Source: Nemertoderma westbladi (taxonomy: Eukaryota > Animalia > Xenacoelomorpha). From it: DNA of 64,000 bases. A model generated the notes under the pieces. That model saw nothing but the letters and a program-made list of their open reading frames with translations. It was not told the origin of the DNA and did no database searches. The stretch spans positions 1 to 64,000 of the forward strand of contig JAUCBJ010007883.1 in the NCBI GenBank assembly GCA_032718475.1, given 5' to 3'. The position numbers and the translations under genes are program-made. How positions within the stretch are numbered: position 1 is the first letter of the stretch; every line of letters begins with the position of its first letter. Shown in pieces: positions 13,304 through 64,000 of the stretch.

Positions 13304-13439
13304 CTAAATGAATAATGAAACTAAATGTGAATGTGATCTGAAACTTCAGTAGCACTACACTTAAGTGTACTGGAAATGGTTCTCAGATTCACTAATGGTT
13401 CAATTTGTCGGACATAAATATTTGTTTTAATAAAAGTAA

Positions 13440-41946: not shown

Positions 41947-43485
41947 ACTAATTGATCCCCAACCAATAGACTTCCAGCACTAATAGATACCCAACCAATA
42001 GACTTCCGGCACTAATTGATCCCCAACCAATAGACTTCCGGCACTAATTGATACCCAACCAATAGACTTCCAGCACTAATTGATCCCCAACCAATGGACT
42101 TCCAGCACTAATTGATCCCCAACCAATGGACTTCCAGCACTAATTGATCCCCAACCAATAGACTTCCAGCACTAATTGATCCCCAACCAATAGACTTCCG
42201 GCACTAATTGATACCCAACCAATAGACTTCCGGCACTAATTGATACCCAACCAATAGACTTCCAGCACTAATTGATACCCAAACAATGGACTTCCAGCAC
42301 TAATTGATACCCAACCAATAGACTTCCGGCACTAATTGATACCCAACCAATAGACTTCCAGCACTAATTGATACCAACCAATAGACTTCCGGCACTAATT
42401 GATCCCCAACCAATAGACTTCCAGCACTAATTGATACCAACCAATAGACTTCCGGCACTAATTGATCCCCAACCATTAGACTTCCAGCACTAATTGATAC
42501 CCAAACAATGGACTTCCAGCACTAATTGATCCCCAACCAATAGACTTCCGGCACTAATTGATACCCAACCAATAGACTTCCAGCACTAATTGATACCAAC
42601 CAATAGACTTCCGGCACTAATTGATCCCCAACCAATAGACTTCCAGCACTAATTGATCCCCAACCAATAGACTTCCGGCACTAATTGATACCCAACCAAT
42701 AGACTTCCGGCACTAATTGATCCCCAACCAATAGACTTCCAGCACTAATTGATACCCAAACAATAGACTTCCGGCACTAATTGATACCCAACCAATAGAC
42801 TTCCAGCACTAATTGATCCCCAACCAATAGACTTCCGGCACTAATTGATCCCCAACCAATAGACTTCCAGCACTAATTGATACCCAAACAATGGACTTCC
42901 AGCACTAATTGATACCCAACCAATAGACTTCCGGCACTAATTGATACCCAACCAATAGACTTCCAGCACTAATTGATCCCCAACCAATGGACTTCCAGCA
43001 CTAATTGATACCCAACCAATGGACTTCCGGCACTAATTGATCCCCAACCAATAGACTTCCAGCACTAATTGATCCCCAACCAATAGACTTCCAGCACTAA
43101 TTGATCCCCAACCAATAGACTTCCAGCACTAATTGATCCCCAACCAATGGACTTCCAGCACTAATTGATACCCAACCAATGGACTTCCGGCACTAATTGA
43201 TCCCCAACCAATAGACTTCCGGCACTAATTGATCCCCAACCAATGGACTTCCGGCACTAATTGATCCCCAACCAATGGACTTCCGGCACTAATTGATCCC
43301 CAACCAATAGACTTCCAGCTCCAATTGATCCCCAACCAATAGACTTCCAGCACTAATTGATACCCAACCAATAGACTTCCAGCACTAATTGATCCCCAAC
43401 CAATAGACTTCCAGCACTAATTGATCCCCAACCAATAGACTTCCGGCACTAATTGATCCCCAACCAATAGACTTCCAGCACTAAT
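41947..43485 (+). repeat. 32-bp minisatellite, ~48 copies, immediately 3' of the ABCB6 stop
   Basis: Unit actaattgatccccaaccaatagacttccagc. Confidence 0.97.
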
Positions 43486-43497
43486 AGAATCTCCGTC

Positions 43498-44385
43498 TTA
43501 CCTTATAAGTTTATCACTCCCGGAACTCTCGTCTAACAAGGCCCCCTCACCCCCGACATCCGACTGCTGTTGCCGCCACATATCGGCGTACACACCGTCG
43601 GCTCGCAGCAGCTCGGCGTGGCAACCCCGCTCCGTAATCTCCCCGTCCTGCAGCACGAGGATCTGATCCGCGGATTGGATCGTCGACAAGCGATGCGCCA
43701 CGATCAACGAGGTCCGATCGGCGCAGATCCGGTTGAGACTCGCCTGGATGTTCCGCTCGGTTTTGGTGTCGAGGGCCGAAGTCGCTTCGTCCAGTAGGAC
43801 AATCTGCGGCGCTTTCAGCAGCGTCCGCGCGATCGCTACGCGCTGCTTCTCGCCTCCGGACAGTTTCAACCCCCGCTCCCCGACCGCGGTTTCGTACCCG
43901 TCCGGGAATCCTTCGATCCGACTGTGGATATCCGCCGCCTTGGCGGCTTCCACAACTTCCTCCTCTGAGGAGGTCACCTTCCCGTAGCGGATGTTGGCTC
44001 GGATATCGTTATTGAAGAGGACGGTATCCTGGGGCACCACTCCGATGGACTGCCGCAGCGAGGTCTGCCGGACGCGCGAGATATCCTGCCCGTCGATCGT
44101 GATACTCCCGGAATTTACGTCGAAGAAGCGGAATATGAGGCGGATGATGGTGGACTTTCCGGAGCCGGAAGGCCCGACCACTGCGACCGATCGACCGGCC
44201 GGAACCACGAAGTTGATCCCTCGTAGGATCGATTTATCGGGTCGGTAGTTGAAACAAACATCGTTGAAACGGATCTCCCCCTGGCTGATTAACAGCTCAG
44301 GGGCGTCGGGAATGTCTGTGACCTCCTGGCTCTCCTTGAGGAGGGAGAACATATTCTCCATGTCAATAAATGCATTCTGGAGCAC
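43498..44385 (-). CDS. ABCB6: ABCB6/HMT-1 half ABC transporter exon 2 (NBD)
   Basis: CAG acceptor at 44386-88; [13 protein letters not shown], Walker [10 protein letters not shown], signature LSGGEKQR, Walker [11 protein letters not shown] and H-loop AHRLST. Confidence 0.93.
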
Positions 44386-44534
44386 CTGTGGTGGATAAAA
44401 TGTAATGTTTGATAAATATACGATACCGTAACTATGGTAATAAATATGTGTATCGTTACTCCTTGTACAACGTTGCGGTGGTTGCTGCAACACAAATAGA
44501 ATACATTACATGCACAACGAAAAGTTATGGTAAA

Positions 44535-44875
44535 AAGAAAAGTTAAGTTATCGGTGACAGTGAAACACGAAATGCCGGAGGCCATCACCGACCACCAGCG
44601 CGATCCTCTCTCTTGGCAGTTACCTGTAAGGTAGGGAGGACGTCGCACTGAACCCAATGGCGAACACTCCATAACTACCCAATCCTTTCTTTACACTTAA
44701 AGCCGAAGCCAGGTTCGAATTGTTCTGCTGGGTTTGCGATAGCACTATTGTTTAAAGTGTCTTGCTTAGGGACTCAAAGTGCTAAATTTGTACAGCCTTT
44801 AGTTGGATTTGAACCTGCGTCGCTAAACAATATTGTGAAAGCAGATCAGCCGCAGTATCCACTCGGATCTTGCGC
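44535..44875 (-). mobile_element. tRNA-derived SINE in the ABCB6 intron
   Basis: Minus strand: A-box-like agatccgagtgg, B-box ggttcaaatcc, then cctaagcaagacactttaaac (SINE central-domain-like) and an aactt tail. Confidence 0.65.
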
Positions 44876-45805
44876 TCGCTGCAAATAAGTTTGTTAATTA
44901 TTCGTTTTCGATTCATAATAATTTTGGTATTTCTTCATTTATTTTTTATTCATTAAATTTAAAAGTTACAGAGGCAGGCTTATCTAACCAAAACAATAAA
45001 CGGCCACTTTACCAATTGAGGGAGAGGAGCAGGTTGCAGAGACGGGCTTTTATAACCAAAACAATAAACCATCATATCAGTAGTCACTCTATAACCAAAA
45101 AAATTAGGCAGTCAAGCAATAGGTACCGCCCCCTACTGCTACCGGTATGCAGCTGTAGAAACGGTTGAAACAACGGTCCCCAAAGTAACAAGACCCCATC
45201 AATCATATATAAATATAGGCAGGATTATAAATAAAGCGTTCCGTCATAGGAAAATTTATAATCGTAAACCACGGGAACTCGACATAATTAAGGCAAGATT
45301 TGTTAAACGCCTGCTAGGACCGACAAAAACTACCTCAGCTACAATGGTTCTCAGAGCCGTAAATGAAAAAACATTCTGTGAGGACATTATTGATAAAACA
45401 CCGAACGTCTTCAAACTCGAAATAATTGAAGACTACATATAAACCAGGGCTTCTTAAATGGACCGGCGTTTATAAATTCCTCTTGGAAAGGAGCTCTCCT
45501 ACAGATCCGCCATATCATAACTAGAACTACGGCCCATCGTTGGCACTCCAACTTATGCACAAACTCTGAACCATTCCACGATCGATCGGATCAGTGTTTA
45601 TGCGGGTTTTGCGGCGGCTCAGCCCATCACCTGCCCCACGTGCTAGACTGCCCCAATCAATCATTATCAAATTCTGTGAAATTTTAAAGTCTATTTCAAC
45701 GTGATATTTTTAAACTATGTTGTTTTAATTAAAATTTTATTTATTGCGATTAAACACTCATTTACGCAGATCATGGGGTGTATATATTAAAAATAAATAA
45801 ATAAC

Positions 45806-47500
45806 CTGGTAGATGGTGCCGAAAAAGTTGAGCGGAACGTAGAGTTGAATGATATAAGTAGAGAATAGGACGTAGTCTCCTGAACTCATTGTGCGGTCTA
45901 CAACGTAATGGGCACAGAGGAGAGCCCCACCGAGGAGACCGATGTTAACGATGATGCTCTGGGTCGTGTTTAGGATAACCAGGGAGTACTGACTCTTCCA
46001 TTCGCATTCCTGGTAGTTGAGAATCTGTTTGTTGTAGATATCGACTTCGTAATCCTCGGCGCCGTAGTATTTAACGGTCTCGAAATTAAGGAGGGAGTCG
46101 ATTGCTTTAGATTTAGTAGCGTTGTCTTTCTCGTTCATGGCACGGCGGAATTTAGTCCGCCATTCGGTTATAGTGATAGTGGCGACCAGATAGATAACCA
46201 TCACAGTGAGCACAATGAGTCCGAAGTAAATATTGAAGGCGACCATGAAGTAGACGACAGCGATGATGATGTCGGCGATGGTTGGGACGATGTTGAAGGT
46301 GAGATACTGGAGCACTGAGTTGATGGAGGTAGTCCCGCGGTCCATAACGCGGATTACCTCGCCAGTTTTACGACCGAGGTGCCATCTGAGGGAGAGGGCG
46401 TGGAGGTGGGAGAAGAGTCGAACCGAGATGGATCGGGAGGTATTCTGTTGGACCTTGATGAATAGGAGGGCGCGGGCGCTGTTGAGAAGACCTGCGGAGC
46501 CACTGCCCTGGAGCAAACGGAAGAGAACGTAATAAATGATGACGGCGAAAGGGATTAGTGTCGGGTAATTGTTGTCAGGGCCGATTGATAGTTGGTCGAC
46601 GATCTTCTTGTAGAAGATGGGGATGAAGACGTTGACAACCCGACCGGCAGCGAGGACGACATAGCAGAGGAACATGTAGAGCTGCAGACGGGGTTTACCT
46701 TGGGGCCACAAGTACGGGAAGAGGATGCCAATCTTACGGGAGAAATTTGCCCAGGTTGAGCCGGTCTCAGGCCTTCCGACTTCCAATAAGGATTGGGAAG
46801 CTTCTTCTGTGTCATCTTCGTCCCGCGGTCGCCATGCGAAGCCTGGGCCCTTGAGGCTGACCACGAACAGCACAAACAACACGACAAGCTTAGCTAACCA
46901 TAGGCCAAAGAAGGTAACATCGTTATCGGATGATAAGGGCCACCACCAATGGGGACTCAGCCATGAAATCAGCGGGCAAATCTCCAAAACTACGGCCAGA
47001 GCCCAGAATAAGTGAAGGAGGCAGCTGTGCCTAGGTTTACGGTAACTGTTGCGGCGGCGTTTAACGTCGTGGAAAATTAAAATGACGGAGAATATATAAG
47101 CGGTGGATTCAGTGATAGCATCGAAGACCACGTACATGGGGTGGTAGCCAGCCATCTCTATGAGAACAATCACCTTGGCGACAACCAATAGAAGGGAGAT
47201 TACAGTGAGAAGCAGCTGTAGGCGGTATAAAAAGGGATGTTGGGGGGCCCGAGAGGACCGCAACCTGGAGAGGTAGCTGGGGTCTCTGGGGCGGCCCCCA
47301 CATACAGCGGAGGAACAAACCCGGCAAACAACGTCCACGAGGACAATAGCCAATAAGATAGCTGGAAAGAAGGTGTAATAGAAACAAAGGGAGATCCCGC
47401 TGTCCAACCATACCGTGCTAATGTTAACGTTGGCAGGGCAATAGTGTTTGGCTGATATGTTAGTAGCATTGTGGATATCTTCTGAAAATATTTCTATCAT
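45806..47500 (-). CDS. ABCB6: ABCB6/HMT-1 exon 1 (TMD0 + TMD)
   Basis: N-terminal YCP...W...GISLCF TMD0, LFPYLWP, LSLRWHLGRKTGEV, DSLLNFETVKYY and QLYVPLNFFGT. Phase-0 GT at 45805-04 joins exon 2 for 860 aa in total. Confidence 0.93.
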
Positions 47501-47762
47501 ATTGAATTGCGGTGCATTATCCTGTTATCAAATTATTATTAATAATAGTCAATATCTGAATAGAGATATAACCGGATATATTCTATACCATATGTTCTAT
47601 AATATATATTATATCTGAAATATTAGTTGTCACACATTTTACTGTTAGTTCAAAAGGCCAACAGTCCAGCAGTCTACATAGTACCGGTACTGTATCCGTA
47701 ACCGTACATCATACACCCATATACTGACAAGACTGATACCTATATCAGTATATACTGATATA

Positions 47763-48085
47763 TTGGTAGTAACAATGTGTTGGCAAGCTGTATTTTTCGA
47801 GGTGTTTGTTATTATACATTTATTATAGGAAGGGATCTAGGGGTCTAGGAATCCGACACCACGCTGATGAGACCCAGTAAGGTCGAAACGCGTACGTGGA
47901 TTGGAGAGATATGAGATATTAATTTCAAGAAAAATTACGCGATTCTTAAATTTGTACACTACCCGGCTAAAAAGTACGCATGTGATGGGATTAGTCCTAC
48001 AATTGCGCCAATAAAAGATAAGTTATTTTCGGTAAAATAAACTTATCATTCGAGGTAAAGACCCCTAGATCCCTTCCTATAATAA
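47763..48085 (+). mobile_element. 323-bp insert with 13-bp TSD and internal inverted repeat, carrying a hammerhead (Penelope/retrozyme-like)
   Basis: ATATACTGATATA at 47750-62 and 48086-98. 29-bp inverted repeat atttattataggaagggatctaggggtct / agacccctagatcccttcctataataaat. Confidence 0.65.
47859..47899 (+). ncRNA. Type I hammerhead ribozyme (minimal, palindromic helix III)
   Basis: ccacg-CTGATGA-gacc cagtaa ggtc-GAAA-cgcg-TA^cgtgg. Helix I is ccacg/cgtgg, helix II is gacc/ggtc, the core is complete, and the GUA cleavage triplet ends at 47894. Confidence 0.88.
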
Positions 48086-48158
48086 ATATACTGATATAGG
48101 CCTACCGGGTAAGTGATCAGCCTATTGAATCATGACAAAATACCGGTTGCCGGTGCCA

Positions 48159-48362
48159 GTCCACGGTTCGCCCAACAATCCCGGATGGGTCCACGGTTCG
48201 CCCAACAATCCCGGATGGGTCCACGGTTCGCCCAACTATCCAGGAGGGGTCCACGGTTCGCCCAACAATCCAGGATGGGTCCACGGTTCGCCCAACAATC
48301 CCGGATGGGTCCATGGTTCGCCCAACAATCCCGGATGGGTCCACGGTACGCCCAACAATCCC
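48159..48362 (+). repeat. 30-bp tandem repeat (~7 copies) at the LINE 5' end
   Basis: Unit gtccacggttcgcccaacaatcccggatgg. Confidence 0.95.
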
Positions 48363-49887
48363 AGTCCCTGAATCCCCTGAGTCCCAGAATCATCCTATAA
48401 CTACTGATGCAGATAACTGCCAGGAAAACTCACCGAGACCTTCCTCACCCCCATACACAACGGTGCGAAACGCGAAAAGGGATAAACCAAGAGTCCTAAT
48501 ATTTATGGACAGCAATCGACGGTTTATACGTACAAGACAAATCGACATAACAGCAAAGATGATTCCTACAGGTAATTCTCAAGATCTTATTGATAGAATG
48601 TACTCATCCGCTAAATTCGACAGTAATGTTACCAAAATATATATCCACACAGGAACAAATGAAGTTGACCCTATCAACAGATCTACAAGGCCTATATGTA
48701 AAAACATCGAAACTGCAATCGGAGTAGCAAAACAAACCTGGCCTAATTGTCAAATAGTTGTTTCTTCCATTCTTCCACGAACTGATATCGATGTTACCAA
48801 TATCAATAACAACCTCAGAATCTCATGTAGGAAATTAAAAGTCACGTTAGCATCCCACACGACGATAAACAGATCCCATCTGTATGACGATAGACATATT
48901 TCACTAAGAAATATAAAGATCCTTGCTAAGTCCATAAAGGACTTTCTTCACCGTAATATTATTGTTACCGACCACTCGGTAAACTTCGGTAAACAACTTC
49001 GGTACCCCGACACCACCCCGGCTCGGTACCCCGACACCAACCCGGCTCGGTACCCCGACACCAACCCGGCTCGGTACCCCGACACCAACCCGGCTCGGTA
49101 CCCCGACACCAACCCGGCTCGGTGCCCCGACACCAACCCGGCTCGGTACCCTGACACCAACCCGGCTCGGTACCCCGACACCAACCCGGCTCGGTACCCT
49201 GACACCAACCCGGCTCGGTACCCCGACACCAACCCGGCTCGGTGCCCCGACACCAACCCGGCTCGGTGCCCCGACACCAACCCGGCTCGGTACCCTGACA
49301 CCAACCCGGCTCGGTACCCCGACACCAACCCGGCTCGTTGCCCCGACACCAACCCGGCTCGGTACCCTGACACCAACCCGGCTCGGTACCCCGACACCAA
49401 CCCGGCTCGGTACCCTGACACCAACCCGGCTCGGTACCCCGACACCAACCCGGCTCGGTACCCCGACACCAACCCGGCTCGGTACCCCGACACCAACCCG
49501 GCTCGGTACCCCGACACCAACCCGGCTCGGTACCCCGACACCAACCCGGCTCGGTACCCCGACACCAACCCGGCTCGGTACCCCGACACCAACCCGGCTC
49601 GGTACCCCGACACCAACCCGGCTCGGTACCCCGACACCAACCCGGCTCGGTACCCCGACACCAACCCGGCTCGGTACCCCGACACCAACCCGGCTCGGTA
49701 CCCCGACACCAACCCGGCTCGGTACCCTGACACCATCCCGGCTCGGTACCCCGACATAAACCCGGCTCGGTACCCCGACACCATCCCGGCTCAGTGCCAT
49801 GAGGTACCTGAAGAGAAGGTTCTCCTTAAGTACAACAGACCAGTAGTAGATGCTTTTATTTCGTTACTGCGAGCTATAAATATATGA
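48313..49887 (+). CDS. LINE ORF1: SGNH esterase-like domain followed by a (PARYPDTN)n repeat
   Basis: VLIFMDSN (block I), IHTGTNE (block III), IVVSSILPR and LYDDRHI (DxxH). Frame is open from 48136. Confidence 0.8.
   Translation: MVRPTIPDGSTVRPTIPVPESPESQNHPITTDADNCQENSPRPSSPPYTTVRNAKRDKPRVLIFMDSNRRFIRTRQIDITAKMIPTGNSQDLIDRMYSSAKFDSNVTKIYIHTGTNEVDPINRSTRPICKNIETAIGVAKQTWPNCQIVVSSILPRTDIDVTNINNNLRISCRKLKVTLASHTTINRSHLYDDRHISLRNIKILAKSIKDFLHRNIIVTDHSVNFGKQLRYPDTTPARYPDTNPARYPDTNPARYPDTNPARYPDTNPARCPDTNPARYPDTNPARYPDTNPARYPDTNPARYPDTNPARCPDTNPARCPDTNPARYPDTNPARYPDTNPARCPDTNPARYPDTNPARYPDTNPARYPDTNPARYPDTNPARYPDTNPARYPDTNPARYPDTNPARYPDTNPARYPDTNPARYPDTNPARYPDTNPARYPDTNPARYPDTNPARYPDTNPARYPDTNPARYPDTIPARYPDINPARYPDTIPAQCHEVPEEKVLLKYNRPVVDAFISLLRAINI
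48999..49795 (+). repeat. 24-bp in-frame coding minisatellite (~33 copies) in ORF1
   Basis: Unit cggtaccccgacaccaacccggct. Confidence 0.95.
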
Positions 49888-50014
49888 ATAATAATAATCT
49901 TTAACATTTTTACAAAGAACCATTGAACCATGTAATAACCATAACCAACCGTAATAACTAACATATCACTAAACTATTTCATTCAAGTGCGGAATAATTT
50001 TAATATGCATAATA

Positions 50015-53000
50015 TTGTCATTATGTTTTAATTATAATATTTTTAATAAATCTAACGCCAGAGCACAAAGCGAAGCAGCGACAGAAGTATATAGAGATAA
50101 ACCAAACTTAAAACATTTATTATGTAATTTCAACGCCAGTGCCACCCATATAGCACCTTTGTATGTACCATATAATTATAATTACCGTGCCTTACTTACG
50201 AATTGCCATGAACTTATTTACGCCATATTATTAATTCCGTTGTTCGCCAATATTCATTTATTACTATTAAAGTGCAATTTACTATATAACAGGTTAGAGC
50301 GTCCCATACTGAGTTGCCAGCAAGGGGCTTGTTATATGTTTATGGCGGGTTTATTTAGAATTGAAACTCGGCGCATATGTATATATCTTGTATATTTGAT
50401 ATTAATGTTTAACAAATATATTTTCTTATTACATTTACATTGTGTAAATGAGGTTTATGTAAACTTTGCTGTAAATATCCTAGCCAGTATCTATGGCAAC
50501 TATATTCGCCCATTTTTGTCGCGAAAGAAAATAATATTATTAAAATCTAAGCCAAATCTTCTTCGAAAAACTAAATATAAACCTATTAGACTTTCATTGT
50601 TAATTCTTTTACAGATCTTAATACCGCAAGTATTCATCCTAAATCAAATTCACTTTTTCCATACTATAATCACTGCCACTGCTGTATTAATAGATTTCCT
50701 ACTCGCAATATGGCTTGTTACAAAACAATACGGTAAATTAGAATGTAGAAAACCCACAGGTTTAGTAGGTTTAGTATGTTTAGTATTAACTATACAATTA
50801 GCGTCACAATTGTCGGTACATAACCGTTTTACTGTTACAGCACACGCCTACAATATAAAAGTACTTAGTCCCAATAGAAGTTACTCAGGTTCTTTATTTA
50901 GTCCACGCCAAACAGTCCCAAGAGTGCACCAAGTAACTCATATGCTCACACAATTTTTTATAAGTTTAGGTATCAATATAATAGTTTACATATCAGGCAA
51001 CTTTTTAGCAGACATATTCGCCCAATGCAATGATATAGAAACTAACCCGGGACCTAAAGGTACACAGCCAACTAAGACGAACAATCGACCTAATACACAA
51101 TGTATAACAGTAACCGACTACATGACACAAAATCCTAACGGGGTAAATTTCATTTTAATCAACACCCGCAGTTTAGTGAAAAATTATGAAGAATTAAAAC
51201 AATTAATTATGTCTCTTAACCAGTACGCAATAATTGGAGTAACAGAAACATGGTTAAAGCGGAAACATAGTAAACAATCTATTTCAATACCTGGATATGT
51301 ACATTACCGTAACGATAGGAGGAAAAGAAAGGGAGGGGGGGTTCTTATTTATATTCCAGAAAACTTGCCGCATAAAGTAAAGCAGGACATCCAAAATAAA
51401 AACTGCAAATCTGCATATGAGTCACTTTGGATAGAAATCGATACCAGTATTCTATTCGGCGTAGTATATCGACCCCCCAAAAATGTATCTTTTCTTGAAG
51501 ATTTTCTTGAAGAAACGGAAAATGCACTGAACTACAATTATAGTAATACAATCATAGCAGGTGACTTTAATTGTGATATGTTAGATAAAAATAATGTGAA
51601 AGTGAAGGAACTTGAAAACTATATGATTACTTATAATCTAGACCTACTTAATGAACTTACCCCAACACGATATGGCAATGGGAAAAACAAAAACTCATTA
51701 CTTGACTTATACCTCACTACCTCCCATAATAAATCCATTTATAATTCAATAACAACACCGAGTGGCTTCTCTGACCACGATTATGTATTATTACATTGTG
51801 ACACGAAGCTAAGCGCGACACCCACGTCCAAAAAAAGTAGCATAAGAATAACATACAGAGATTATAAACAGTTCTCAGAAAAAATGTTCTTGCAGGATAT
51901 ATCGCAAATAAATTGGGCCCCACTATACAATAACGCGGACATTGACAAATCATATAATTACTTCGAACATGAAATTGAAAACGTACTAAACAGACATGCT
52001 CCTATAACAACAAAAACAATAACAGAAAACAGAACTAAGAACACTACAAACAAAAATGCATGGGAAACACAGGAATTAAAACAACTAAATAAACAAAAAA
52101 TGGACTCACTATATATCTGGAGAACAACTAAAACTGATGATGATTATGCAAACTTTAAGACGAATAGAAATAAATACAATAACTTAAATCGCACATTAAA
52201 AAATAATTATATGAAATCAAAATTTGCTGGGGCAAAAAATGCAAAATCACGCTGGAAAATAATTAACTCAATTTTAAATAAAAAAAGTACGAGCGATATG
52301 ATTAATACAATAAAAACTAAAAATGGAAAAATTGAACACGGTTGCAAAATAATAGCTAATATACTCAACTCTACATTTTTAACACTGGGACTACAGACTA
52401 GAAATATCACAAAACAAACACTACCTGTTAACACACATACTCCATTGTGCAATGATACTTTTTCATTTCACAATATCACTGTAACTGATCTCTTAACCAT
52501 CTTGGATAAACTAAATACGAATAAATCTGCTGGTCCCTCCACAATTCCCCCACGCATAATAAAATTAATTAAGACAAAAATAGCCTACCCATTAACATAT
52601 ATAATAAACCAAAGTTTAACCACATCGAAGTTCCCCTCAAACTTAAAAATGACTAATATTACCCCTGTTTTCAAAAAGGGAGATAGAGAGAATGCTACCA
52701 ACTATCGCCCAATATCTGTAACATCCACATTTGCTAAAATTTTTGAAACCGTAATGCTAAACCAAATTGTATCATATATAACTAAAAATAAAATAATCAA
52801 AAATAAACAATTCGGTTTTCGCAAAGGATATGCAACTTCTGATGCATTAATTTACACTACAGAATCATGGAAAGCAACACTAGATAGCAATAAATACGTG
52901 GCCATTGCAGCACTGGATGTAGCAAAAGCGTTCAACTCTTTAAATCATAATATCCTATTAAACAAACTTACCCGACTCGGATTTCACACTACTGCCACCA

Positions 53001-54061
53001 ACCTAATAGCAAACTACTTACATGATAGGGTGCAAAGAGTCAAAATTAATAATACTCATTCTGACTGGGCTAAAATTAATCACGGCATTCCACAGGGTAC
53101 CCAAGTAGGACCTATCCTATTTCTTTTATACGTAAATAACATATCCGCCTTCTCTGATTTAGATCTAATCCAATATGCTGATGACACTCTAATATTTGCA
53201 TCACATTCAAATCCTTTAACAGCAACACACAATCTATCTGAACATGTAGACAAACTGGAACGTAACCTACTAGATATAAACCTAGATCTCAACACGGATA
53301 AGTCAGAATTTATCTTACTTTCTCCAAAAACCAGAACACCGAGCATAGAAAAAATACAACTAAAAACACAGTCATACACAATTGAACAATCCACTTCAAT
53401 TAAGTACTTAGGCGTTATTATTGATAATAGACTTAACTGGCACGCCCAAATTGACCAAATTACTCACAAAATGGCCCTTGCAATATCATGCCTACGCAAT
53501 GTTAAAGGACAACTACCATTGAAGACAAAATTAAATATATATAAATCTACAGTATTACCTTACCAAAATTATTGCTCAGATTTGCTAGTACCATTACACA
53601 AACAATATGGATATAAACAAAAACTATATGAAATAGAGAAACAACAAAACTTTGGTTTACGCGTAGTCTTCAGTAAAAAGAATAGGGATTCCACCGGCAC
53701 AGAACTTCGCACCATTGCTAAAATACCAAATTTACATTCACTGCGAGAATTTAACGCTTTAAAATTCTTTCACAAATATACGCATAACTTATCCACCCCT
53801 TTCAAACACATAGATCTACCATACTTACCAATTACTTTGTTAACTTCTGGTTCCCACAAACTTCTAAACCCACGCACGTACAATATTAAAATTCCAAAAA
53901 CTTATTCAAATCATGGAACTTACAGTTTAACAGTGGCACTTATTAAAATATGGAATAGTATCCCCACTGAAATTAAAAAACAAGATACATATAAATTATT
54001 TTTACGCGACGTAAAAGCAAAATATTTGAAACACTACACTCGATACGAAGAAATAACTTAA
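50015..54061 (+). CDS. LINE ORF2: hydrophobic N-terminal extension, 2A-like peptide, APE endonuclease and reverse transcriptase (uninterrupted)
   Basis: DIETNPGP; APE motifs NTRSL, GVTETWL, GGGV, YRPP, AGDFN, SDH; RT motifs NYRPISV, QFGFR, DVAKAF, GIPQGT, YADD, YLGV. No stops or frameshifts. First ATG at 50336. Confidence 0.92.
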   Translation: MSLCFNYNIFNKSNARAQSEAATEVYRDKPNLKHLLCNFNASATHIAPLYVPYNYNYRALLTNCHELIYAILLIPLFANIHLLLLKCNLLYNRLERPILSCQQGACYMFMAGLFRIETRRICIYLVYLILMFNKYIFLLHLHCVNEVYVNFAVNILASIYGNYIRPFLSRKKIILLKSKPNLLRKTKYKPIRLSLLILLQILIPQVFILNQIHFFHTIITATAVLIDFLLAIWLVTKQYGKLECRKPTGLVGLVCLVLTIQLASQLSVHNRFTVTAHAYNIKVLSPNRSYSGSLFSPRQTVPRVHQVTHMLTQFFISLGINIIVYISGNFLADIFAQCNDIETNPGPKGTQPTKTNNRPNTQCITVTDYMTQNPNGVNFILINTRSLVKNYEELKQLIMSLNQYAIIGVTETWLKRKHSKQSISIPGYVHYRNDRRKRKGGGVLIYIPENLPHKVKQDIQNKNCKSAYESLWIEIDTSILFGVVYRPPKNVSFLEDFLEETENALNYNYSNTIIAGDFNCDMLDKNNVKVKELENYMITYNLDLLNELTPTRYGNGKNKNSLLDLYLTTSHNKSIYNSITTPSGFSDHDYVLLHCDTKLSATPTSKKSSIRITYRDYKQFSEKMFLQDISQINWAPLYNNADIDKSYNYFEHEIENVLNRHAPITTKTITENRTKNTTNKNAWETQELKQLNKQKMDSLYIWRTTKTDDDYANFKTNRNKYNNLNRTLKNNYMKSKFAGAKNAKSRWKIINSILNKKSTSDMINTIKTKNGKIEHGCKIIANILNSTFLTLGLQTRNITKQTLPVNTHTPLCNDTFSFHNITVTDLLTILDKLNTNKSAGPSTIPPRIIKLIKTKIAYPLTYIINQSLTTSKFPSNLKMTNITPVFKKGDRENATNYRPISVTSTFAKIFETVMLNQIVSYITKNKIIKNKQFGFRKGYATSDALIYTTESWKATLDSNKYVAIAALDVAKAFNSLNHNILLNKLTRLGFHTTATNLIANYLHDRVQRVKINNTHSDWAKINHGIPQGTQVGPILFLLYVNNISAFSDLDLIQYADDTLIFASHSNPLTATHNLSEHVDKLERNLLDINLDLNTDKSEFILLSPKTRTPSIEKIQLKTQSYTIEQSTSIKYLGVIIDNRLNWHAQIDQITHKMALAISCLRNVKGQLPLKTKLNIYKSTVLPYQNYCSDLLVPLHKQYGYKQKLYEIEKQQNFGLRVVFSKKNRDSTGTELRTIAKIPNLHSLREFNALKFFHKYTHNLSTPFKHIDLPYLPITLLTSGSHKLLNPRTYNIKIPKTYSNHGTYSLTVALIKIWNSIPTEIKKQDTYKLFLRDVKAKYLKHYTRYEEIT
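51032..51055 (+). other. 2A-like ribosomal skipping motif D(V/I)ExNPG^P
   Basis: GAT ATA GAA ACT AAC CCG GGA CCT = DIETNPGP, preceded by hydrophobic NFLADIFAQCN and just upstream of the APE domain. Confidence 0.8.
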
Positions 54062-55414
54062 TCCCAGGAACAGGATATATACTGCACTGTGCTGCATTCA
54101 CCTTTTTATTAGTTTATTGTTATTGTTATTTGTTTAGATACCAGTAAAGTTGTTAGTAGTAGGCCCCGCCCCTACTTGATGTCTATGTTTTACGTATATA
54201 GTTAGACCCCTGCTGGACAACTGACGCTTATTTCCTTTTTAAATTATCAGCTTGTGCGACGTTTGTTTGCTAGCTGCCTCCAATTGGTTTACCAGGCGGA
54301 GTTTTAAGGAAATAAAAGATGTTTATTATTATTTTATTATATTATTATATTATTATTATATTATTATGCCATCCAGCGACTGCGAATCATGCCCTGCCCA
54401 TTGTACAGTTGTATAACGTCGTCGTTGAAATTGGCTACTCCTAGCCATACACACACACACACACACATTACAGCATTATGTACAAGGACAAACAGATTAA
54501 ACAGGATACAAAGGCATTTCAGGTTAGACCTCCTTGGCACTTGGTCCTTATATAAAGTATATATAAAGAAAGATTTAACACATACTGACATAGATAAGTT
54601 AAATAAAATAGGCCCTTACTGCCTTACAAAAAGAAAGTACCGGTACCTACTGACTGACTAAAGTAGGGTAAATTCAGACCTTTCCTGCTGTCCTGCCTTC
54701 ACTTTTTCGCAAAAAAAATGCTTTTACACACGGCACGGATCGGAGACTGTGTTCACAACCTCCACCCTCAGGCGCTCAGGGTCAGCTGGAACCGGGAGGT
54801 GGGAGGGGAGCGAGGGCGAGTAGGCCTACCAAATGGCAGAATGGGCTGGGCACAATTCTGTACGCAAATACCAGAATACTGAAATATATTTTTACACATT
54901 AACCAGTTAACAGCGACTGCTACTACCTACTACTTCTACTTGCTTTCTACATCTACAACTGTACAGTTCTAACAGTATTGTCAGATTGTACTTAGACCTG
55001 TAGGCCTAGTACAGTTCAGTTAGATTCCTGCTCTGCTGCTGTACTACTACTACACTGACTACAGCGATACAGTTGCACAGCACAGCAGCAGTCAGTATTG
55101 ACACTATGCGGCTGTGATAGTACTGCAATATGCAATATGCCTACAGCTGTACAGTCTGACAGTACAACGTACAATTCAGCAATTATGATTGCGAAATTGC
55201 AATGTCAGAATGTGTGGGTGGAAACAGCTGATTTTGTTTACATTTACTGATACCAGATACCGTTTGGTTTGGATTTATAAGATTGTAAATAAATCGATAA
55301 CGCCACCTAGAGGTATTAACTAATATTTCGAACTGGTGTGTCATTAAATCCATTTTGTACCATCTTCGATGAATTAAGTTAGCAACATTGAGCATACCTG
55401 AAAAAAATATATTA

Positions 55415-55550: not shown

Positions 55551-56850
55551 TCTATTCTTAATCGAAGGAGACCTCGAAATATTCCTTCTACGGGTACATG
55601 AGTCAGTTAAAATCATCATTCCCAACAAAGAGGACACGTTTTAGTCCCTTCCTGATTAAAAATAAAATTGAAGTTTAGAGGGAGTCCATCAGTCCAAGGA
55701 TAATCTGCCCAGTGGGCGTATCCAGGATTTCTCCGATAAAGTTGAAGTTACTAGACCTAGTGGTACTGTACTGGTGGGCTTCAGATACCTTCCTAAAATT
55801 ATGGGTTAGATACTTTTGGGGCTTTAGTGTTAAAGATTTTATGAACATGGTTAAGCCGAAGTTGGGAGACGTGCGATTCAACATGAACAAACTATACCTA
55901 CTTCTTTAAAATCTGTCGTTGTTACACTTGTGGGTGGCCCATAACTACACAGTATGTATAATACGTACGTATTAACGCATTTATTTTGACACACTTGTAG
56001 TCTTTGTTTCAAATTATTGTTAAGCCCTACATAGCAGAATGAATAGAGCATAAAATTGTTCGCATGTTAGGTGATAGGCATTTTCTGGTTTCTACTGTAT
56101 ACAGAAACTTAAATCTTCCATTCCCTTTGGATATTATGTCTGATACAATATCAATTCCTGCCAGGCTGTTGTCTATTGTGAGACCTTACTCAACTATATG
56201 AAAGTGTACGATTATATTTGATTATATTGTGCAGTAAATAGTTCATTAAATAAATAATAATTGATTATATAAATTAAGTAAAAATAAATATTAAAATATT
56301 CCTGCCCCAGCCCCAGTCCACCGTTTTAGAAAGCGATAATTCAAATTTACAGCATGGCACAGGATTTCATTGCTTTGATTGACTGTCCACTCCCCGCTCT
56401 TTGTACAGTTGTATGCTTCCCCCAAGGACTACTGAAGTAGTCTTTGGCTCCCCCTCAACTCTGCCAGTCTGCATCTGCATCTGCACAATGTCTGAATGTA
56501 ACGTACAGAAGTACACTAAGAAGGTCTGAAGGTAAGTACCGTACCGTACACTTCCAGACTGTAGCACTGCACTGGTTGCTGCTTGCTGGGTTGACTGGCT
56601 TTGTCTTTGGCTACTCCAGTACTCTGCTCTGGTCTTAAAGTCTTACATCTTGGTTTGGCAGTTTGGTGCTAGCTGGCTGGTGTCTGGTGCAGTGCAGCAG
56701 TGGTGAATGCAGATACTGAGATACGATACACTGATTCACTGATACGGTCAGACAGTATCGCGCAGTAGTACAGTAGTCAGGTAGTAGGGTGTAGTACCGG
56801 TACTACTGTACTATACCTGTATACCGTGTATACAGCTATATACTACAACT

Positions 56851-57828
56851 ATGCCTTCGCTATTCAATGTGATTGTTGTGCTTCTAACTTCTATGCGCTA
56901 TCATTGCCACGCGGAACTTTCTCCTAATGATTATTTGCGCAAAGAATTTAGTTTAATCAAACCATTCTCTGGTGCACGGATACCGCTTTGGGACATCCTA
57001 GGGAACACGATGATAACCCCGGACTACGTGCGACTAACTCCGGACGAACCGAGCCGAAGCGGCGCGATATGGGGCAAAGTTCCCTGCAACGTCCGGGACT
57101 GGGAGATCCATCTGCGATTCCGAGTCCACGGCAAAGCCAAGTCCTTGTTCGGCGACGGATTCGCGTTCTGGTACGCCCGGGACAGGATGTTCTCCGGCCC
57201 GGTGTTCGGTAGTCGGGACTACTTTCACGGACTCGCCGTATTCTTCGACACTTACAGCAACCACAACGGCCCACACAACCACGGACACCCCTATATATCC
57301 GCGATGGTGAACAACGGGACCTTCCATTACGACCACGACCGGGACGGGACTCACACCGAGATGTCCGGTTGCCAATCCTCCTTCAGGAATCGGAAATCCG
57401 ACGTTAAAGCGATAATCCGTTACGTGAAAGGCCAACTCACCGTGTCTACGGACATCGACGATAGAGGTAAACCCAAGGAGTGTTTCACCTCTCCGGACGT
57501 TCGTCTACCCATCGGGTACCACTTTGGTCTATCAGCGGCCACTGGGGAACTATCGGACAACCACGATATTATATCGTTTAAGTTCTACGATATTGATATG
57601 CCGGGACGGATAGCGGCCAAGGAGGAGGAACTGCGGAATATTAAACCGGAGGCGCGGTTCTTCCAGCCCCCGCGGGACCACATTGATGACGCTCCCGTCT
57701 CCACACTGGGGGGGTTCAGGATGTTTCTACTGGTACTTATTGGACTCGCTGGGACCGTTCTATGCGTGGGTGTCAGCGTTATGGTGCTAAAGAAGCGCCA
57801 AGAAAGGAACCTAAAGCGCTTTTATTAA
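56851..57828 (+). CDS. LMAN2: VIP36/LMAN2-like L-type lectin cargo receptor, intronless, 325 aa
   Basis: Signal peptide, YLRKEFSLIKPF, GDGFAFWY, FDTYSN, YDHDRDG, SAATGELSDNHDIIS, TM helix and a cytosolic KRFY tail. Confidence 0.93.
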   Translation: MPSLFNVIVVLLTSMRYHCHAELSPNDYLRKEFSLIKPFSGARIPLWDILGNTMITPDYVRLTPDEPSRSGAIWGKVPCNVRDWEIHLRFRVHGKAKSLFGDGFAFWYARDRMFSGPVFGSRDYFHGLAVFFDTYSNHNGPHNHGHPYISAMVNNGTFHYDHDRDGTHTEMSGCQSSFRNRKSDVKAIIRYVKGQLTVSTDIDDRGKPKECFTSPDVRLPIGYHFGLSAATGELSDNHDIISFKFYDIDMPGRIAAKEEELRNIKPEARFFQPPRDHIDDAPVSTLGGFRMFLLVLIGLAGTVLCVGVSVMVLKKRQERNLKRFY

Positions 57829-60846: not shown

Positions 60847-63800
60847 GTCTCTCCAGCCTACCTCTCTGCAACGGGTCTCTCCAGCATACCTCTTCACCCC
60901 GGGTCTCTCCAGCCTACCTCTTCAATCCGGGTCTCTCCAGCCTACCTCTTCAATAACCCGGGTCTCTCCAGCCTACCTCTCTGCAACGGGTCTCTCCAGC
61001 CTACCTCTTCAACCCGGGTCTCTCCAGCCTACCTCTTCAATCCGGATCTCTCCAGCCTACCTCTTCAATAACCCGGGTCGCTCCAGCCTACCTTTTCAAC
61101 CCTGGACTCTCCAGCCTACTTCTTCAATAACCCGGGTCTCTCCAGCCTACCTTTTCAACCCTGGACTCTCCAGCCTACCTAACTGTAACGGGTCTCTCCA
61201 GCCTACCTCTCTGCAACGGGACTCTCCAGCCTACCTCTCTGCAACGGGTCTCTCCGGCCCACCTCTTCAACAACCCGGGACTCTCCAACCTACCTCTCTG
61301 CAACGGGACTCTCCAACCTACCTCTCTGCAGCGGGACTCTCCAGCCTACCTCTCTGCAACGGGTCTCTCCAGTCTACCTCTCTGCAACGGGACTCTCCAG
61401 CCTACCTCTCTGCAACGGTTCTGTCCAGCCTACCTCTTCAACCCGGGTCTCTCCAGCCTACCTCTCTGCAAGGGGACTCTCCAGCCTACCTCTCTGCAAC
61501 GGGACTTTCCGGCCTACCTCTCTGCAACGGGACTCTCCAGCCTACCTCTCTGCAACGGGTCTCTCCAGCCTACCTCTTTAACCCGGGTCTCTCCAGCCTA
61601 CCTCCTCAACCCGGATCTCTCCAGCCTACCTCTTCAACCCGGGTCTCTCCAGCCTACCTCTCTGCAACGGGTCTCTCCAGCCTACCTCTTCAACCCGGGT
61701 CTCTCCAGCCTACCTCTTCAATCGGATCTCTCCAGCCTACCTCTTCAATAACCCGGGTCTCTCCAGCCTACCTTTTCAACCCTGGATTCTCCAGCCTACC
61801 TAATTGTAACGGGTCTCTCCAGCCTACCTGTTCAATAACCCGGGTCTCTCCAGCCTACCTCTCTGCAACGGGTCTCTCCAGCCTACCTCTCTGCAACGGG
61901 TCTCTCCAGCCTACCTCTTCAACCCGGGTCTCTCCAGCCTACCTCTTCAATCCGGATCTCTCCAGCCTACCTCTTCAATAACCCGGGTCGCTCCAGCCTA
62001 CCTTTTCAACCCTGGACTCTCCAGCCTACCTAATTGTAACGGGTCTCTCCAGCCTATCTCTTCAATAACCCGGGTCTCTCCAGCCTACCTCTCTGCAACG
62101 GGTCTCTCCAGCCTACCTCTTCAATAACCCGGTACTCTCCAGCCTACCTCTCTGCAACGGGACTCTCCAGCCTACCTTTCTGCAACGGGTCTCTCCAGCC
62201 TACTTCTCTGCAACGGGTCTCTCCAGCCTACCTAATTGTAACGGGTCTCTCCAGCCTATCTCTTCAATAACCCGGGTCTCTCCAGCCTACCTTTTCAACA
62301 ACCCGGGACTCTCCAGCCTACCTCTTCAACCCGGGTTTCTCCAGCCTACCTCTTCAACCCGGATCTCTCCAGCCTACCTCTTCAATCCGGATCTCTCCAG
62401 CCTACCTTTTCAATAACCCGGGTCTCTCCAGCCTACCTTTTCAACCCTGGACTCTCCAGCCTACCTAATTGTAACGGGTCTCTCCAGCCTACCTCCCTGA
62501 AACGGGTCTCTCCAGCCTACCTATCTGCAACGGGTCTCTCCGACCTACCTCTTCAACAACCCGGGTCTCTCCACCCTACCTCTTCAACCCGGGTCTCTCC
62601 AGCCTACCTCTTCAACCCGGGTTTCTCCAGCCTACCTCTTCAACCCGGATCTCTCCAGCCTACCTCTTCAATAACCCGGGTCTCCCCAGCCTACCTTTTC
62701 AACCCTGGACTCTCCAGCCTACCTATTTGCGACGGGACTCTCCAGCCTACCTCTCTGCAAGGGGACTCTCCAGCCTACCTCTCTGCAACGGGACTATCCG
62801 GCCTACCTCTCTACAACGAGACTCTCCAGCCTACCTCTCTGCAACGGGTCTCTCCAGCCTACCTCTTCAACCCGGGTTTCTCCAGCCTACCTCTTCAACC
62901 CGGATCTCTCCAGCCTACCTCTTCAATAACCCGGGTCTCCCCAGCCTACCTTTTCAACCCTGGACTCTCCAGCCTACCTATTTGCGACGGGACTCTCCAG
63001 CCTACCTCTCTGCAAGGGGACTCTCCAGCCTACCTCTCTGCAACGGGACTATCCGGCCTACCTCTCTACAACGAGACTCTCCAGCCTACCTCTCTGCAAC
63101 GGGTCTCTCCAGCCTACCTCTTCAACCCGGGTTTCTCCAGCCTACCTCTTCAACCCGGATCTCTCCAGCCTACCTCTTCAATAACCCGGGTCTCCCCAGC
63201 CTACCTTTTCAACCCTGGACTCTCCAGCCTACCTATTTGCGACGGGACTCTCCAGCCTACCTCTCTGCAAGGGGACTCTCCAGCCTACCTCTCTGCAACG
63301 GGACTCTCCGGCCTACCTCTCTACAACGAGACTCCCCAGCCTACCTATCTGCAACGGGACTCTCCAGCCTACCTCTCTGCAACGGGTATCTCCAGCCTAC
63401 CTCTTCAACACGGGTCTCTCCAGCCTACCTCTTCAATCCGGGTCTCTCCAGCCTACCTCTCTGCAACGGGTCTCTCCAGCCTACCTCTTCAACCCGGGTC
63501 TCTCCAGCCTACCTCTTCAATCCGGATCTCTCCAGCCTACCTCTTCAATAACCCGGGTCTCTACAGCCTACCTCTTCAACCCTGGACTCTCCAGCCTACC
63601 TAATTGTAACGGGTCTTTCCAGCCTACCTCTCTGCAACGGGTCTCTCCAGCCTACCTCTCTGCAACGGGACTCTCCAGCCTACCTCTCTGCAACGGGACT
63701 CTCCAGCCTACCTCTCTGCAACGGGACTCTCCGGCCTACCTCTTCAACAACCCGGATCTCTCCAGCCTACCTCTTCAACCCGGGTCTCTCCAGCCCACCT

Positions 63801-64000
63801 CTTTAACAACCCGGGTCTCTCCACCCTACCTCTTCAACCTGGGTCTCTCCAGCCTACCTCTTCAACCCGGGTCTCCCCAGCCTACCTCTTCAACCCAGAT
63901 CTCTCCAGCCTACCTCTTCAATAACCCGGGTCTCTCCAGCCTACCTCTTCAACCCTGGACTCTCCAGCCGACCTATTTGCGACGGGACTCTCCAGGCTAC
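60847..64000 (+). repeat. 28/31-bp minisatellite with variant units and a ~258-bp higher-order repeat; runs off the window
   Basis: Units gggtctctccagcctacctctctgcaac / ...cttcaaccc / ...cttcaataaccc. The same 9-unit block recurs at 62727, 62985 and 63243. Confidence 0.96.

What the first reader, a model, noticed from the sequence alone, without database searches (positions are those of the whole stretch)
49973..51055. LINE ORF2 encodes a putative multi-pass membrane protein released by a 2A peptide
Seen: the ORF2 frame is stop-free for ~350 codons of very AT-rich DNA upstream of DIETNPGP. It contains about five hydrophobic stretches (LIYAILLIPLFANIHLLLL; ICIYLVYLILMF; LSLLILLQILIPQVFIL...AVLIDFLLAIWLV; GLVGLVCLVLTIQLA; FFISLGINIIVYISG) separated by basic linkers. 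Knowledge: 2A-like motifs just before the APE domain are described in CR1/L2-type elements, and esterase ORF1 proteins have been reported to bind lipids. As far as I know, a long polytopic membrane product upstream of 2A is not a characterised LINE component. Inference: a three-product retroelement (esterase ORF1, membrane protein, EN-RT) that may tether its RNP to membranes or vesicles. This is the best candidate for an undescribed system in the window.
Basis: partly seen in the sequence, partly recalled or inferred. Interest (0 to 1): 0.8.

Follow-up and report, generated by a model that had tools for sequence, protein, structure and literature searches.

The report
Oversized membrane leader before LINE 2A
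A young jumping gene (LINE) has, in front of its copying enzyme, an unusually long open stretch of 361 codons that would encode up to seven predicted membrane helices and ends in a virus-like ribosome-skipping motif, so it is likely an enlarged form of the short greasy leaders seen in related elements, with skipping and function still untested.

Summary
Observation confirmed. ORF2 (49973-54061) is open for 361 codons up to DIETNPGP: 0 stops against about 25 expected. It has seven hydrophobic segments against about 2 in composition-matched nulls (p=0.0003), and its excess T sits at codon positions 1-2, not 3. Major contigs of four runs keep the frame. The leader has no homologue among 1.84 billion representatives and no confident fold. 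Nearest RT relatives have called leaders of 67-107 aa. An unrelated LINE family (14 clusters) conserves its own hydrophobic leader, 283-335 aa in 10 of them, so long leaders can be under selection. Against the reading: the start is unresolved (first in-frame ATG is at codon 122, behind seven out-of-frame ATGs), 7 of 8 within-species leader variants change the amino acid, and the 2A context has one leucine, so skipping is uncertain. Best reading: an ER-targeted membrane leader, partly cut off by 2A, that localises or throttles EN-RT. It is a new variant of 2A-bearing CR1-group LINEs. The scan noted shorter hydrophobic LINE leaders in three other genomes.

The parts
48136..49887 (+). ORF1 frame (583 codons stop to stop): 30-nt repeat, SGNH-type esterase domain (about 48490-48960), 24-nt repeat x33 (RYPDTNPA), short C-terminus. 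It has no good start in this copy, which may be 5' truncated near 48100 (not tested with reads).
   Evidence: phmmer hit to SGNH protein 2hsj E=0.042; no Pfam hit at E<=1
49884..49972 (+). ORF1 stop overlapping an out-of-frame ATG (AUGA, uORF MNNNNL) and an unstructured AT-rich spacer ending in TAA 49970-49972, which bounds the ORF2 frame. CTAAC at 49958-49962 lies 26 nt before AAG at 49985-49987 (possible branch point and acceptor, unproven).
   Evidence: folding z=+0.95; no variant or indel listed at the stop in 4 of 4 runs
49973..51055 (+). Pre-2A leader of ORF2: 361 open codons, 7 hydrophobic segments (nt 49973-50029, 50213-50269, 50375-50431, 50585-50641, 50666-50722, 50762-50818, 50954-51010); 240 codons and 5 segments if counted from ATG 50336.
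50996..51055 (+). 2A-like (StopGo) peptide GNFLADIFAQCNDIETNPGP; core D-I-E-x-N-P-G-P at 51032-51055; predicted skip between Gly and the last Pro.
   Evidence: sequence; context table; motif definition in PMC3708506
51188..51787 (+). APE endonuclease domain, after a linker of about 40 aa with no PHD finger.
   Evidence: Pfam PF03372 aa 406-538 and PF14529 aa 494-605; alignment A1
52676..53422 (+). Reverse transcriptase domain (YADD); ORF2 stops at 54059-54061.
   Evidence: Pfam PF00078 E=1.8e-35
54062..54367 (+). 3' UTR with AATAAA (54311-54316) and an irregular (TATTA)n tail; no target-site duplication found.
   Evidence: contig depth falls to flank level after about 54390

Best explanation
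This is a young, multi-copy CR1-group LINE whose ORF2 frame starts with a lineage-specific 240-361-residue leader that is predicted to be a multi-helix membrane protein and would be partly cut off by the 2A-like motif, likely placing ORF2 synthesis on the ER and limiting how much free endonuclease-RT is made. Shown: element anatomy, the open frame, the clustered hydrophobic segments, the codon-position signature, the core 2A motif, and the same frame in several samples. Inferred steps: (1) ribosomes enter the frame near its 5' end (non-AUG start or re-initiation) or at ATG 50336/50342; (2) the first hydrophobic segment engages SRP, so the ribosome and its LINE mRNA sit on the ER; (3) by the positive-inside rule the last four segments alternate so that the 2A/EN junction faces the cytosol; (4) at NPG|P a fraction of ribosomes skip, leaving the leader in the membrane and releasing EN-RT beside its own mRNA and the lipid-binding esterase ORF1p, while unskipped product stays membrane-bound and out of the nucleus. 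The leader is best seen as an enlarged form of the 60-120-aa hydrophobic leaders of sister elements.
For: Frame open at p about 4e-12. Even the ATG-less first 121 codons are unlikely to be open by chance (1.5e-4). Seven segments vs 2.0 and 3.2 in two nulls, and 1-2 off-frame. T is enriched over APE-RT at codon positions 1 and 2 (p=3e-4, 5e-6) but not 3 (p=0.18). G1 minus G3 bias is 0.086 vs 0.020 (p=0.004). No stop or indel in the leader in major contigs of 4 of 4 runs from 3 studies; depth is about 10-20 times the flank and rises towards the 3' end, as in 5'-truncated LINE copies (rough, since depth is no copy number). Ten of the 13 nearest RT relatives carry a 2A behind a 67-107-aa leader, 7 of the 10 with a hydrophobic segment. 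An unrelated 2A+PHD family keeps a 283-335-aa leader with a shared Met start, 2-4 hydrophobic segments and invariant motifs in 10 of 14 clusters at 35-86% identity, which shows that a LINE can keep such a product under selection. Precedent for signal-plus-2A dual targeting: PMC4981915 (passages). Esterase ORF1p binds liposomes: PMC3905857 (abstract). 59% of tested ORF2p 2As reduced protein level: PMC13405545 (section 14).
Against: No homologue of this leader: 0 hits at E<=0.001 among 1.84 billion representatives, no Pfam hit, and no similarity to the second family's or the sister clade's leaders beyond the 2A. Purifying selection on its residues is therefore untested. Within the species 7 of 8 leader variants are non-synonymous, one placing Asp in a hydrophobic segment, while 3 of 5 well-supported variants after the 2A are synonymous (too few to be significant, P(<=1 synonymous of 8)=0.46 under neutrality; 75 further rows were not shown). 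Mean hydropathy is not clearly above composition (p=0.08), and 4-fold sites are somewhat T-richer than in APE-RT (0.34 vs 0.26). No strong start codon: seven out-of-frame ATGs precede ATG 50336. The 2A context has 1 Leu at -19 to -10 against 2-6 in 13 relatives, and only 3 of 8 look-alike peptides skipped in a published screen. The N-terminal half has no unambiguous topology.
Confidence: 0.5

Rival explanations
1. Reading-frame bridge: the leader is translated only to carry ribosomes from a start near the ORF1 stop to the enzyme, and 2A discards it. Selection acts against stops, not on the residues, and the hydrophobicity mostly reflects AT-rich DNA (de novo membrane-like sequence).
For: No homologues; sister-clade leaders are only 6-36% identical to each other; 7 of 8 variants are non-synonymous; mean hydropathy p=0.08; T-rich DNA readily yields TM-like ORFs (PMC7005711, search listing only).
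Against: Segments are clustered beyond both nulls and beyond the off-frames; the T excess is at positions 1-2, not 3; sisters manage with 67-107 aa, so a 361-codon bridge is costly; another family conserves motifs in its long leader.
Confidence: 0.25
2. The 2A is weak or inactive, so most product is a membrane-anchored leader-EN-RT fusion, and the active enzyme comes from a small skipped fraction or from internal initiation at ATG 50942 (a 38-aa leader of ordinary size).
For: Leucine-poor context, Asn in place of Gly before the Asp; 5 of 8 look-alike peptides did not give clean skipping; many LINE 2As are barely active (PMC3708506, Results); ER translocation of the upstream protein can inhibit 2A (PMC2978324, abstract); 38 aa is close to the 40-80 aa reported by Odon et al.
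Against: The core DIETNPGP is intact and unchanged in 4 of 4 runs; a 2A is kept in 10 of 10 sister proteins that reach this region; CND/SND variants can skip (3 of 8).
Confidence: 0.15
3. The leader is not an independent product but is joined to ORF1 by splicing (donor in the ORF1 tail, acceptor at 49987/49988 in phase 0), which would give one esterase-membrane-2A-EN-RT polyprotein and explain the missing ATG.
For: CTAAC lies 26 nt upstream of a pyrimidine-rich tract ending in AAG at the very start of the open frame; GAG/GTACCT at 49804/49805 is in phase with ORF1.
Against: Both signals are weak and common in AT-rich DNA; no joint skipping this stretch in DNA contigs of 4 runs, where retrotransposed spliced copies might show (contigs drop rare variants); no RNA data.
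Confidence: 0.07

Closest known systems
[quoted passage not shown] 2013, PMC3708506; Luke et al. 2013, PMC3894237)
   Same: 2A-like motif in the N-terminal region of ORF2, directly before APE with no PHD (as reported for CR1-26_BF, STR-194_SP, L1Tc); proposed role as a translational throttle.
   Different: Published 2As lie about 40-80 aa from the ORF2 start and most such elements lack ORF1. Here the frame is open for 361 codons (240 from the first ATG) with 5-7 hydrophobic segments, and an esterase ORF1 is present (ORF1 plus 2A was a listed exception: CR1-26_BF, CR1-53_BF, CR1-1_LG).
Sea urchin NLR 2A-like signal sequences (Roulston et al. 2016, PMC4981915)
   Same: A hydrophobic segment plus 2A gives two fates: skipped cytosolic product and unskipped product sent to the secretory pathway. 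This is the mechanism it most likely works like.
   Different: A 26-aa N-terminal signal on a host immune protein, not a multi-helix domain on a retrotransposon enzyme.
Esterase-ORF1 LINEs (ZfL2-1, CR1, RTEX; Schneider et al. 2013, PMC3905857)
   Same: SGNH-type ORF1 ahead of APE-RT; membrane association proposed for RNP assembly.
   Different: No 2A or membrane leader is mentioned in the abstract or passages read; the ORF1 here carries two tandem peptide repeats, and no coiled coil is visible in this possibly truncated copy.
ORF2p with domains ahead of a 2A (Josephin/OTU DUB, PPR-like, fused ORF1p; PMC13405545 section 14) and TM-bearing ORF3s of bdelloid LTR elements (PMC5408684)
   Same: 2A used to attach an extra domain in front of EN-RT; small TM proteins carried by retroelements.
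   Different: Those added domains are soluble and recognisable, or belong to LTR elements; none is described as a polytopic orphan membrane domain on a LINE ORF2.

Membership tests
APE-type non-LTR retrotransposon (LINE) | APE endonuclease followed by RT in one ORF | tested here: met
   PF03372, PF14529 and PF00078 hits in order
APE-type non-LTR retrotransposon (LINE) | 3' simple-repeat or A tail, no LTRs, 5'-truncated dispersed copies | tested here: met
   (TATTA)n tail at 54323-54367; no long self-repeat other than the internal arrays; depth rises towards the 3' end
APE-type non-LTR retrotransposon (LINE) | target-site duplication | tested here: inconclusive
   only 7-8-nt low-complexity matches found; 5' end not mapped
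CR1 group (CR1/L2/Crack/Daphne/Rex1), specific clade | RT groups with named clade references | not testable with these tools
   the RT tree of 196 sequences has no clade-labelled references; the group label is inferred from esterase ORF1 + 2A + microsatellite tail (recalled knowledge and PMC3708506)
Esterase (type IV) ORF1 | SGNH blocks: GDS-like Ser, GxND-like Asn, DxxH | tested here: met
   MDS, GTNE and DDRH present in order; SGNH protein 2hsj E=0.042; Pfam gave no hit; activity untested
2A/StopGo peptide | core D(V/I)ExNPGP | tested here: met
   DIETNPGP at 51032-51055
2A/StopGo peptide | suitable upstream context (Leu/hydrophobic helix at -19 to -10) | tested here: inconclusive
   1 Leu and 4 hydrophobic residues vs 2-6 Leu in 13 relatives; viral 2As have 1-3 Leu (PMC13405545 section 13)
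2A/StopGo peptide | peptide-bond skipping at G|P | not testable with these tools
   needs a reporter; 3 of 8 look-alike peptides skipped
Odon-type 2A LINE | 2A within about 40-80 aa of the ORF2 N-terminus | tested here: not met
   361 open codons; 240 from the first ATG; 38 only if ATG 50942 is the start
Odon-type 2A LINE | usually no ORF1 | tested here: not met
   esterase ORF1 ends 85 nt upstream of the frame; contigs run from the ORF1 repeat into the leader
Long-leader 2A+PHD family found here (P0022 group) | leader homology (VNH[FL]SV[DE]N repeats, NYR..TP motif) and PHD after 2A | tested here: not met
   hhalign matches only the 2A; hmmsearch ranks the window leader 114 of 502 among shuffles; no PHD; distant in the RT tree
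Known membrane protein family (GPCR, transporter, viral envelope) | profile or fold match | tested here: inconclusive
   no Pfam, sequence, Atlas or Foldseek match, but the model has pLDDT 45

The most novel reading that the evidence does not exclude
LINEs have, at least twice independently, grown the pre-2A leader into a full polytopic membrane protein that is made one-to-one with the enzyme. In this element it would form a third product that, with the lipid-binding esterase ORF1p, builds a membrane compartment or vesicle for RNP assembly or cell-to-cell passage: an envelope-like function in a retrotransposon class thought to have none.
Probability: 0.2. Interest if true: 0.8.

Novelty: new variant of a known kind. 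Interest (0 to 1): 0.52.

Why it matters
Why LINEs carry 2A motifs, and what the product upstream of 2A does, is an open question raised in PMC3708506 and PMC3894237. Most leaders are too short to study as proteins. This element and the unrelated family found alongside it offer 250-360-residue, membrane-like upstream products, so the proposals (ER targeting of ORF2 synthesis, throttling by dual targeting, membrane-linked RNP assembly with an esterase ORF1p) can be tested directly with tags and reporters. If the leader is a stable membrane protein, LINEs encode a kind of product not described in the papers I could search.

Tried and rejected
No whole genome is held for this window, so diverged sister families of the same host could not be read; this leaves dN/dS open. 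Leader searches that found nothing: phmmer over 1.84 billion representatives, Pfam, ESM Atlas for the window leader and for one leader of the second family, earlier scan notes by sequence. Capture from the neighbouring ABC transporter gene: BLASTP best E=0.57, rejected. Homology to the second family's leader, suggested by eye from a basic loop between hydrophobic runs: rejected. Homology to sister-clade leaders: rank 27 among 501 sequences, score negative, rejected. A structured IRES-like spacer: z=+0.95, no support. Contig scans: a single-protein scan of metagenomes and an alignment scan of viral contigs found no relative; the 150 loci gave 8 motif hits, of which I dropped 1 (L070, no NPGP and no leader) and kept 7, none close to this element. 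No RNA holder was listed. A target-site duplication was not found. The 5' end of the element was not mapped with reads. Pfam on the second family's leaders gave only scattered sub-threshold hits. Supplement search for the look-alike motifs in PMC12338488 gave no rows.

Full report
Observation. The + strand frame 49973-54061 is open for 1362 codons and holds an APE endonuclease and a reverse transcriptase. The first 361 codons end in DIETNPGP. They contain no stop, whereas the other five frames contain 15-44 and 5000 dinucleotide shuffles a mean of 25.4; the chance of an open run of this length is about 4e-12. The DNA is 31-32% GC. Seven 19-residue windows reach a mean hydropathy of 1.6 or more, against 1.97 for stop-free random codons of the same composition (p=0.0003), 3.2 for shuffles of the same residues (p=0.001) and 2 and 1 for the off-frames. 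Mean hydropathy alone is not clearly raised (p=0.08). Compared with the APE-RT part, T is enriched at codon positions 1 and 2 (p=3e-4 and 5e-6) but not at position 3 (p=0.18), and G is favoured at position 1 over 3 (p=0.004). This is a coding signature rather than a simple T-rich tract. Four-fold sites are somewhat T-richer than in APE-RT (0.34 vs 0.26), so composition contributes.

The element. Upstream lies an ORF1 frame (48136-49887) with a 30-nt repeat, SGNH-type motifs MDS, GTNE and DDRH (weak match to the SGNH protein 2hsj, E=0.042; no Pfam hit) and a 24-nt repeat of 33 copies. It may be 5' truncated; this was not tested. An 85-nt unstructured spacer separates it from the ORF2 frame. Downstream are a 3' UTR and a (TATTA)n tail; no target-site duplication was found. 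No genome is held. Contigs of four public runs (three samples at most, one species label) cover the leader with 0-5 differing letters per long piece, no indel, and no change at the bounding TAA or in the 2A core. In X1 and X3 depth is about 10 times the flank over the leader and about 20 times over RT, and it rises 5' to 3' in X1-X3, as expected of a young family with 5'-truncated copies (depth is only a rough guide). The window's own sample may be among these runs.

Start site. The first in-frame ATG is codon 122 (50336), followed by 50342, 50405 and 50942; none has a purine at -3. Seven out-of-frame ATGs precede it, the first overlapping the ORF1 stop (AUGA). The ATG-less first 121 codons are themselves unlikely to be open by chance (1.5e-4) and hold two hydrophobic segments, but their own coding statistics are not significant. 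A non-AUG start, re-initiation, or splicing from ORF1 to a weak acceptor at 49987/49988 are all possible. No DNA contig shows a joint there, and no RNA holder was listed.

Relatives. The leader has no hit among 1.84 billion representatives, in Pfam or in the Atlas. Its single-sequence model is all-helical but unreliable (pLDDT 45), with no fold match. In an RT tree of 196 sequences the element is sister to a group of 13 proteins (support 0.97) at 29-33% overall identity. Ten of the 13 reach the 2A, which precedes APE without a PHD as here; their called leaders are 67-107 aa, and listed cluster members are no longer than 1116 aa in all. These lengths depend on gene-caller starts. On DNA, 7 genuine 2A sites among 150 fetched LINE loci have open frames of 69-145 codons (one further motif hit dropped as spurious). 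Among 58 2A-bearing proteins held (redundant), leaders run from 24 to 335 aa with 0-4 hydrophobic segments, so the window's is the longest and richest seen. The long tail of that list is one family: 14 clusters of 2A+PHD elements, 10 with leaders of 283-335 aa that share a Met start, an N-terminal hydrophobic pair, repeated VNH[FL]SV[DE]N motifs and a hydrophobic-basic-hydrophobic block, at 35-86% pairwise identity (median 45) against 53-91% (median 57) after the 2A. They were retrieved as intact proteins, so broken copies would be missed, but ten lineages this diverged could not stay open without selection. That family is distant in the RT tree and its leader is not homologous to the window's. 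Long leaders therefore arose at least twice.

Evidence against amino-acid constraint. Of 8 variants in the leader, 7 are non-synonymous, including Tyr to Asp in segment 3 in run X4; of 5 well-supported variants after the 2A, 3 are synonymous. The numbers are too small to decide (P=0.46 for at most 1 synonymous of 8 under neutrality), many are probably private changes of single copies, and 75 rows were not shown.

Is the 2A active? The core fits D(V/I)ExNPGP. The context has Asn before the Asp and one Leu in positions -19 to -10, against 2-6 in 13 relatives. In the reporter screen of PMC13405545 (sections 13 and 14, passages and supplementary rows read), activity goes with a hydrophobic, Leu-rich helix. 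Of the 8 rows matching my terms NDIETNPGP, NDVETNPGP, CNDIE and CNDVE, 3 were classed as skipping, 1 as fall-off and 4 as non-skipping. Skipping is plausible, not shown.

Mechanism. Most likely (0.5) the leader is translated, engages SRP through its first hydrophobic segment and is woven into the ER membrane. Basic loops at aa 154-204 and 251-263 suggest that the last four segments leave the 2A junction in the cytosol (inferred; the N-terminal half is ambiguous). Partial skipping would free EN-RT next to its own mRNA and the lipid-binding ORF1p, while unskipped product stays on the membrane, giving both localisation and a throttle. Rivals: a reading-frame bridge with no residue-level function (0.25); a largely inactive 2A with a tethered fusion or internal start at 50942 (0.15); a spliced ORF1-leader polyprotein (0.07).

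Comparison with what is known. Odon et al. 2013 (PMC3708506; abstract, Results and Discussion read) place LINE 2As 40-80 aa from the ORF2 start, mostly in elements without ORF1. Luke et al. 2013 (PMC3894237; parts 1-2 of 3 read) propose down-regulation of ORF2. Roulston et al. 2016 (PMC4981915; passages) show signal-plus-2A dual targeting in sea urchin NLRs, and PMC12846837 (passages, section 14) repeats this. PMC2978324 (abstract) reports that ER translocation can inhibit 2A. PMC3905857 (abstract) shows that the ZfL2-1 esterase binds liposomes. PMC13405545 reports variable N-terminal sequence and DUB or PPR-like domains on ORF2p. PMC5408684 (passages) reports TM-bearing ORF3s in LTR elements. 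PMC4120745 and PMC13343379 (passages) have no occurrence of 'transmembrane'; PMC12338488 (passages) likewise. PMC7005711 was seen in a listing only. Searches found no description of a polytopic pre-2A LINE product; Repbase and most subscription papers are outside the library. The label 'CR1 group' is inferred and was not tested against clade references. Three earlier notes of this scan report shorter hydrophobic leaders before LINE 2As in other genomes; they are unchecked and I use them only as context.

Verdict. A real feature and a new variant of 2A-bearing LINEs: the longest and most membrane-like leader among those examined, together with an esterase ORF1. Translation, skipping and function are untested. 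Interest 0.52; the bolder reading (an envelope-like third product) has probability 0.2 and interest 0.8.

Noticed in passing
proteins P0005, P0020, P0022, P0027, P0033, P0199-P0207 (alignment A2): An unrelated family of 2A+PHD LINEs with a conserved leader of about 300 aa: Met start, N-terminal hydrophobic pair, 2-4 repeats of VNH[FL]SV[DE]N, a hydrophobic-basic-hydrophobic block, then 2A. No Pfam or Atlas match. It is a better object than the window's element for testing selection on a pre-2A product.
   Followed up: partly
window 47739-48100: Nested inverted repeats (15 nt perfect, 47739-47753/48086-48100; 32 nt at 97%, 47815-47846/48059-48090) directly at the LINE's 5' junction; looks like a MITE.
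   Followed up: no
window 48159-48362 and 48999-49792: ORF1 carries two in-frame tandem repeats (30 nt x 6.8; 24 nt x 33, RYPDTNPA) on either side of the esterase domain.
   Followed up: no
window 50527-51210: Runs X1-X3 hold a low-depth contig with unrelated sequence before 50527 and after 51210, which suggests an internal fragment spanning half the leader, the 2A and the start of APE inserted elsewhere.
   Followed up: no
window 52212-52286 and 52706-53197: Short matches with loose ends show diverged sister LINE families in the same species; their leaders could not be read.
   Followed up: no
window 43498-47524 (-) and 56788-57828 (+): Host genes in very long exons: an ABCB6-like transporter (MTABC_N, ABC_membrane, ABC_tran) in two long frames, and a legume-like lectin (LMAN2/VIP36-like, name recalled) in one frame, both about 52% GC in AT-rich surroundings.
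   Followed up: no
window 34430-34906: RT fragment of another LINE family, 36% identical to this ORF2.
   Followed up: no
window 2914-12570, 13437-23880, 41947-43485, 60847-64000: Long tandem arrays with periods of 54, 48, 32 and 28 nt.
   Followed up: no
loci L081-L150: 70 loci from prokaryotic genome records encode LINE-type RT or APE-RT pieces, most likely eukaryotic host contigs binned into MAGs.
   Followed up: no
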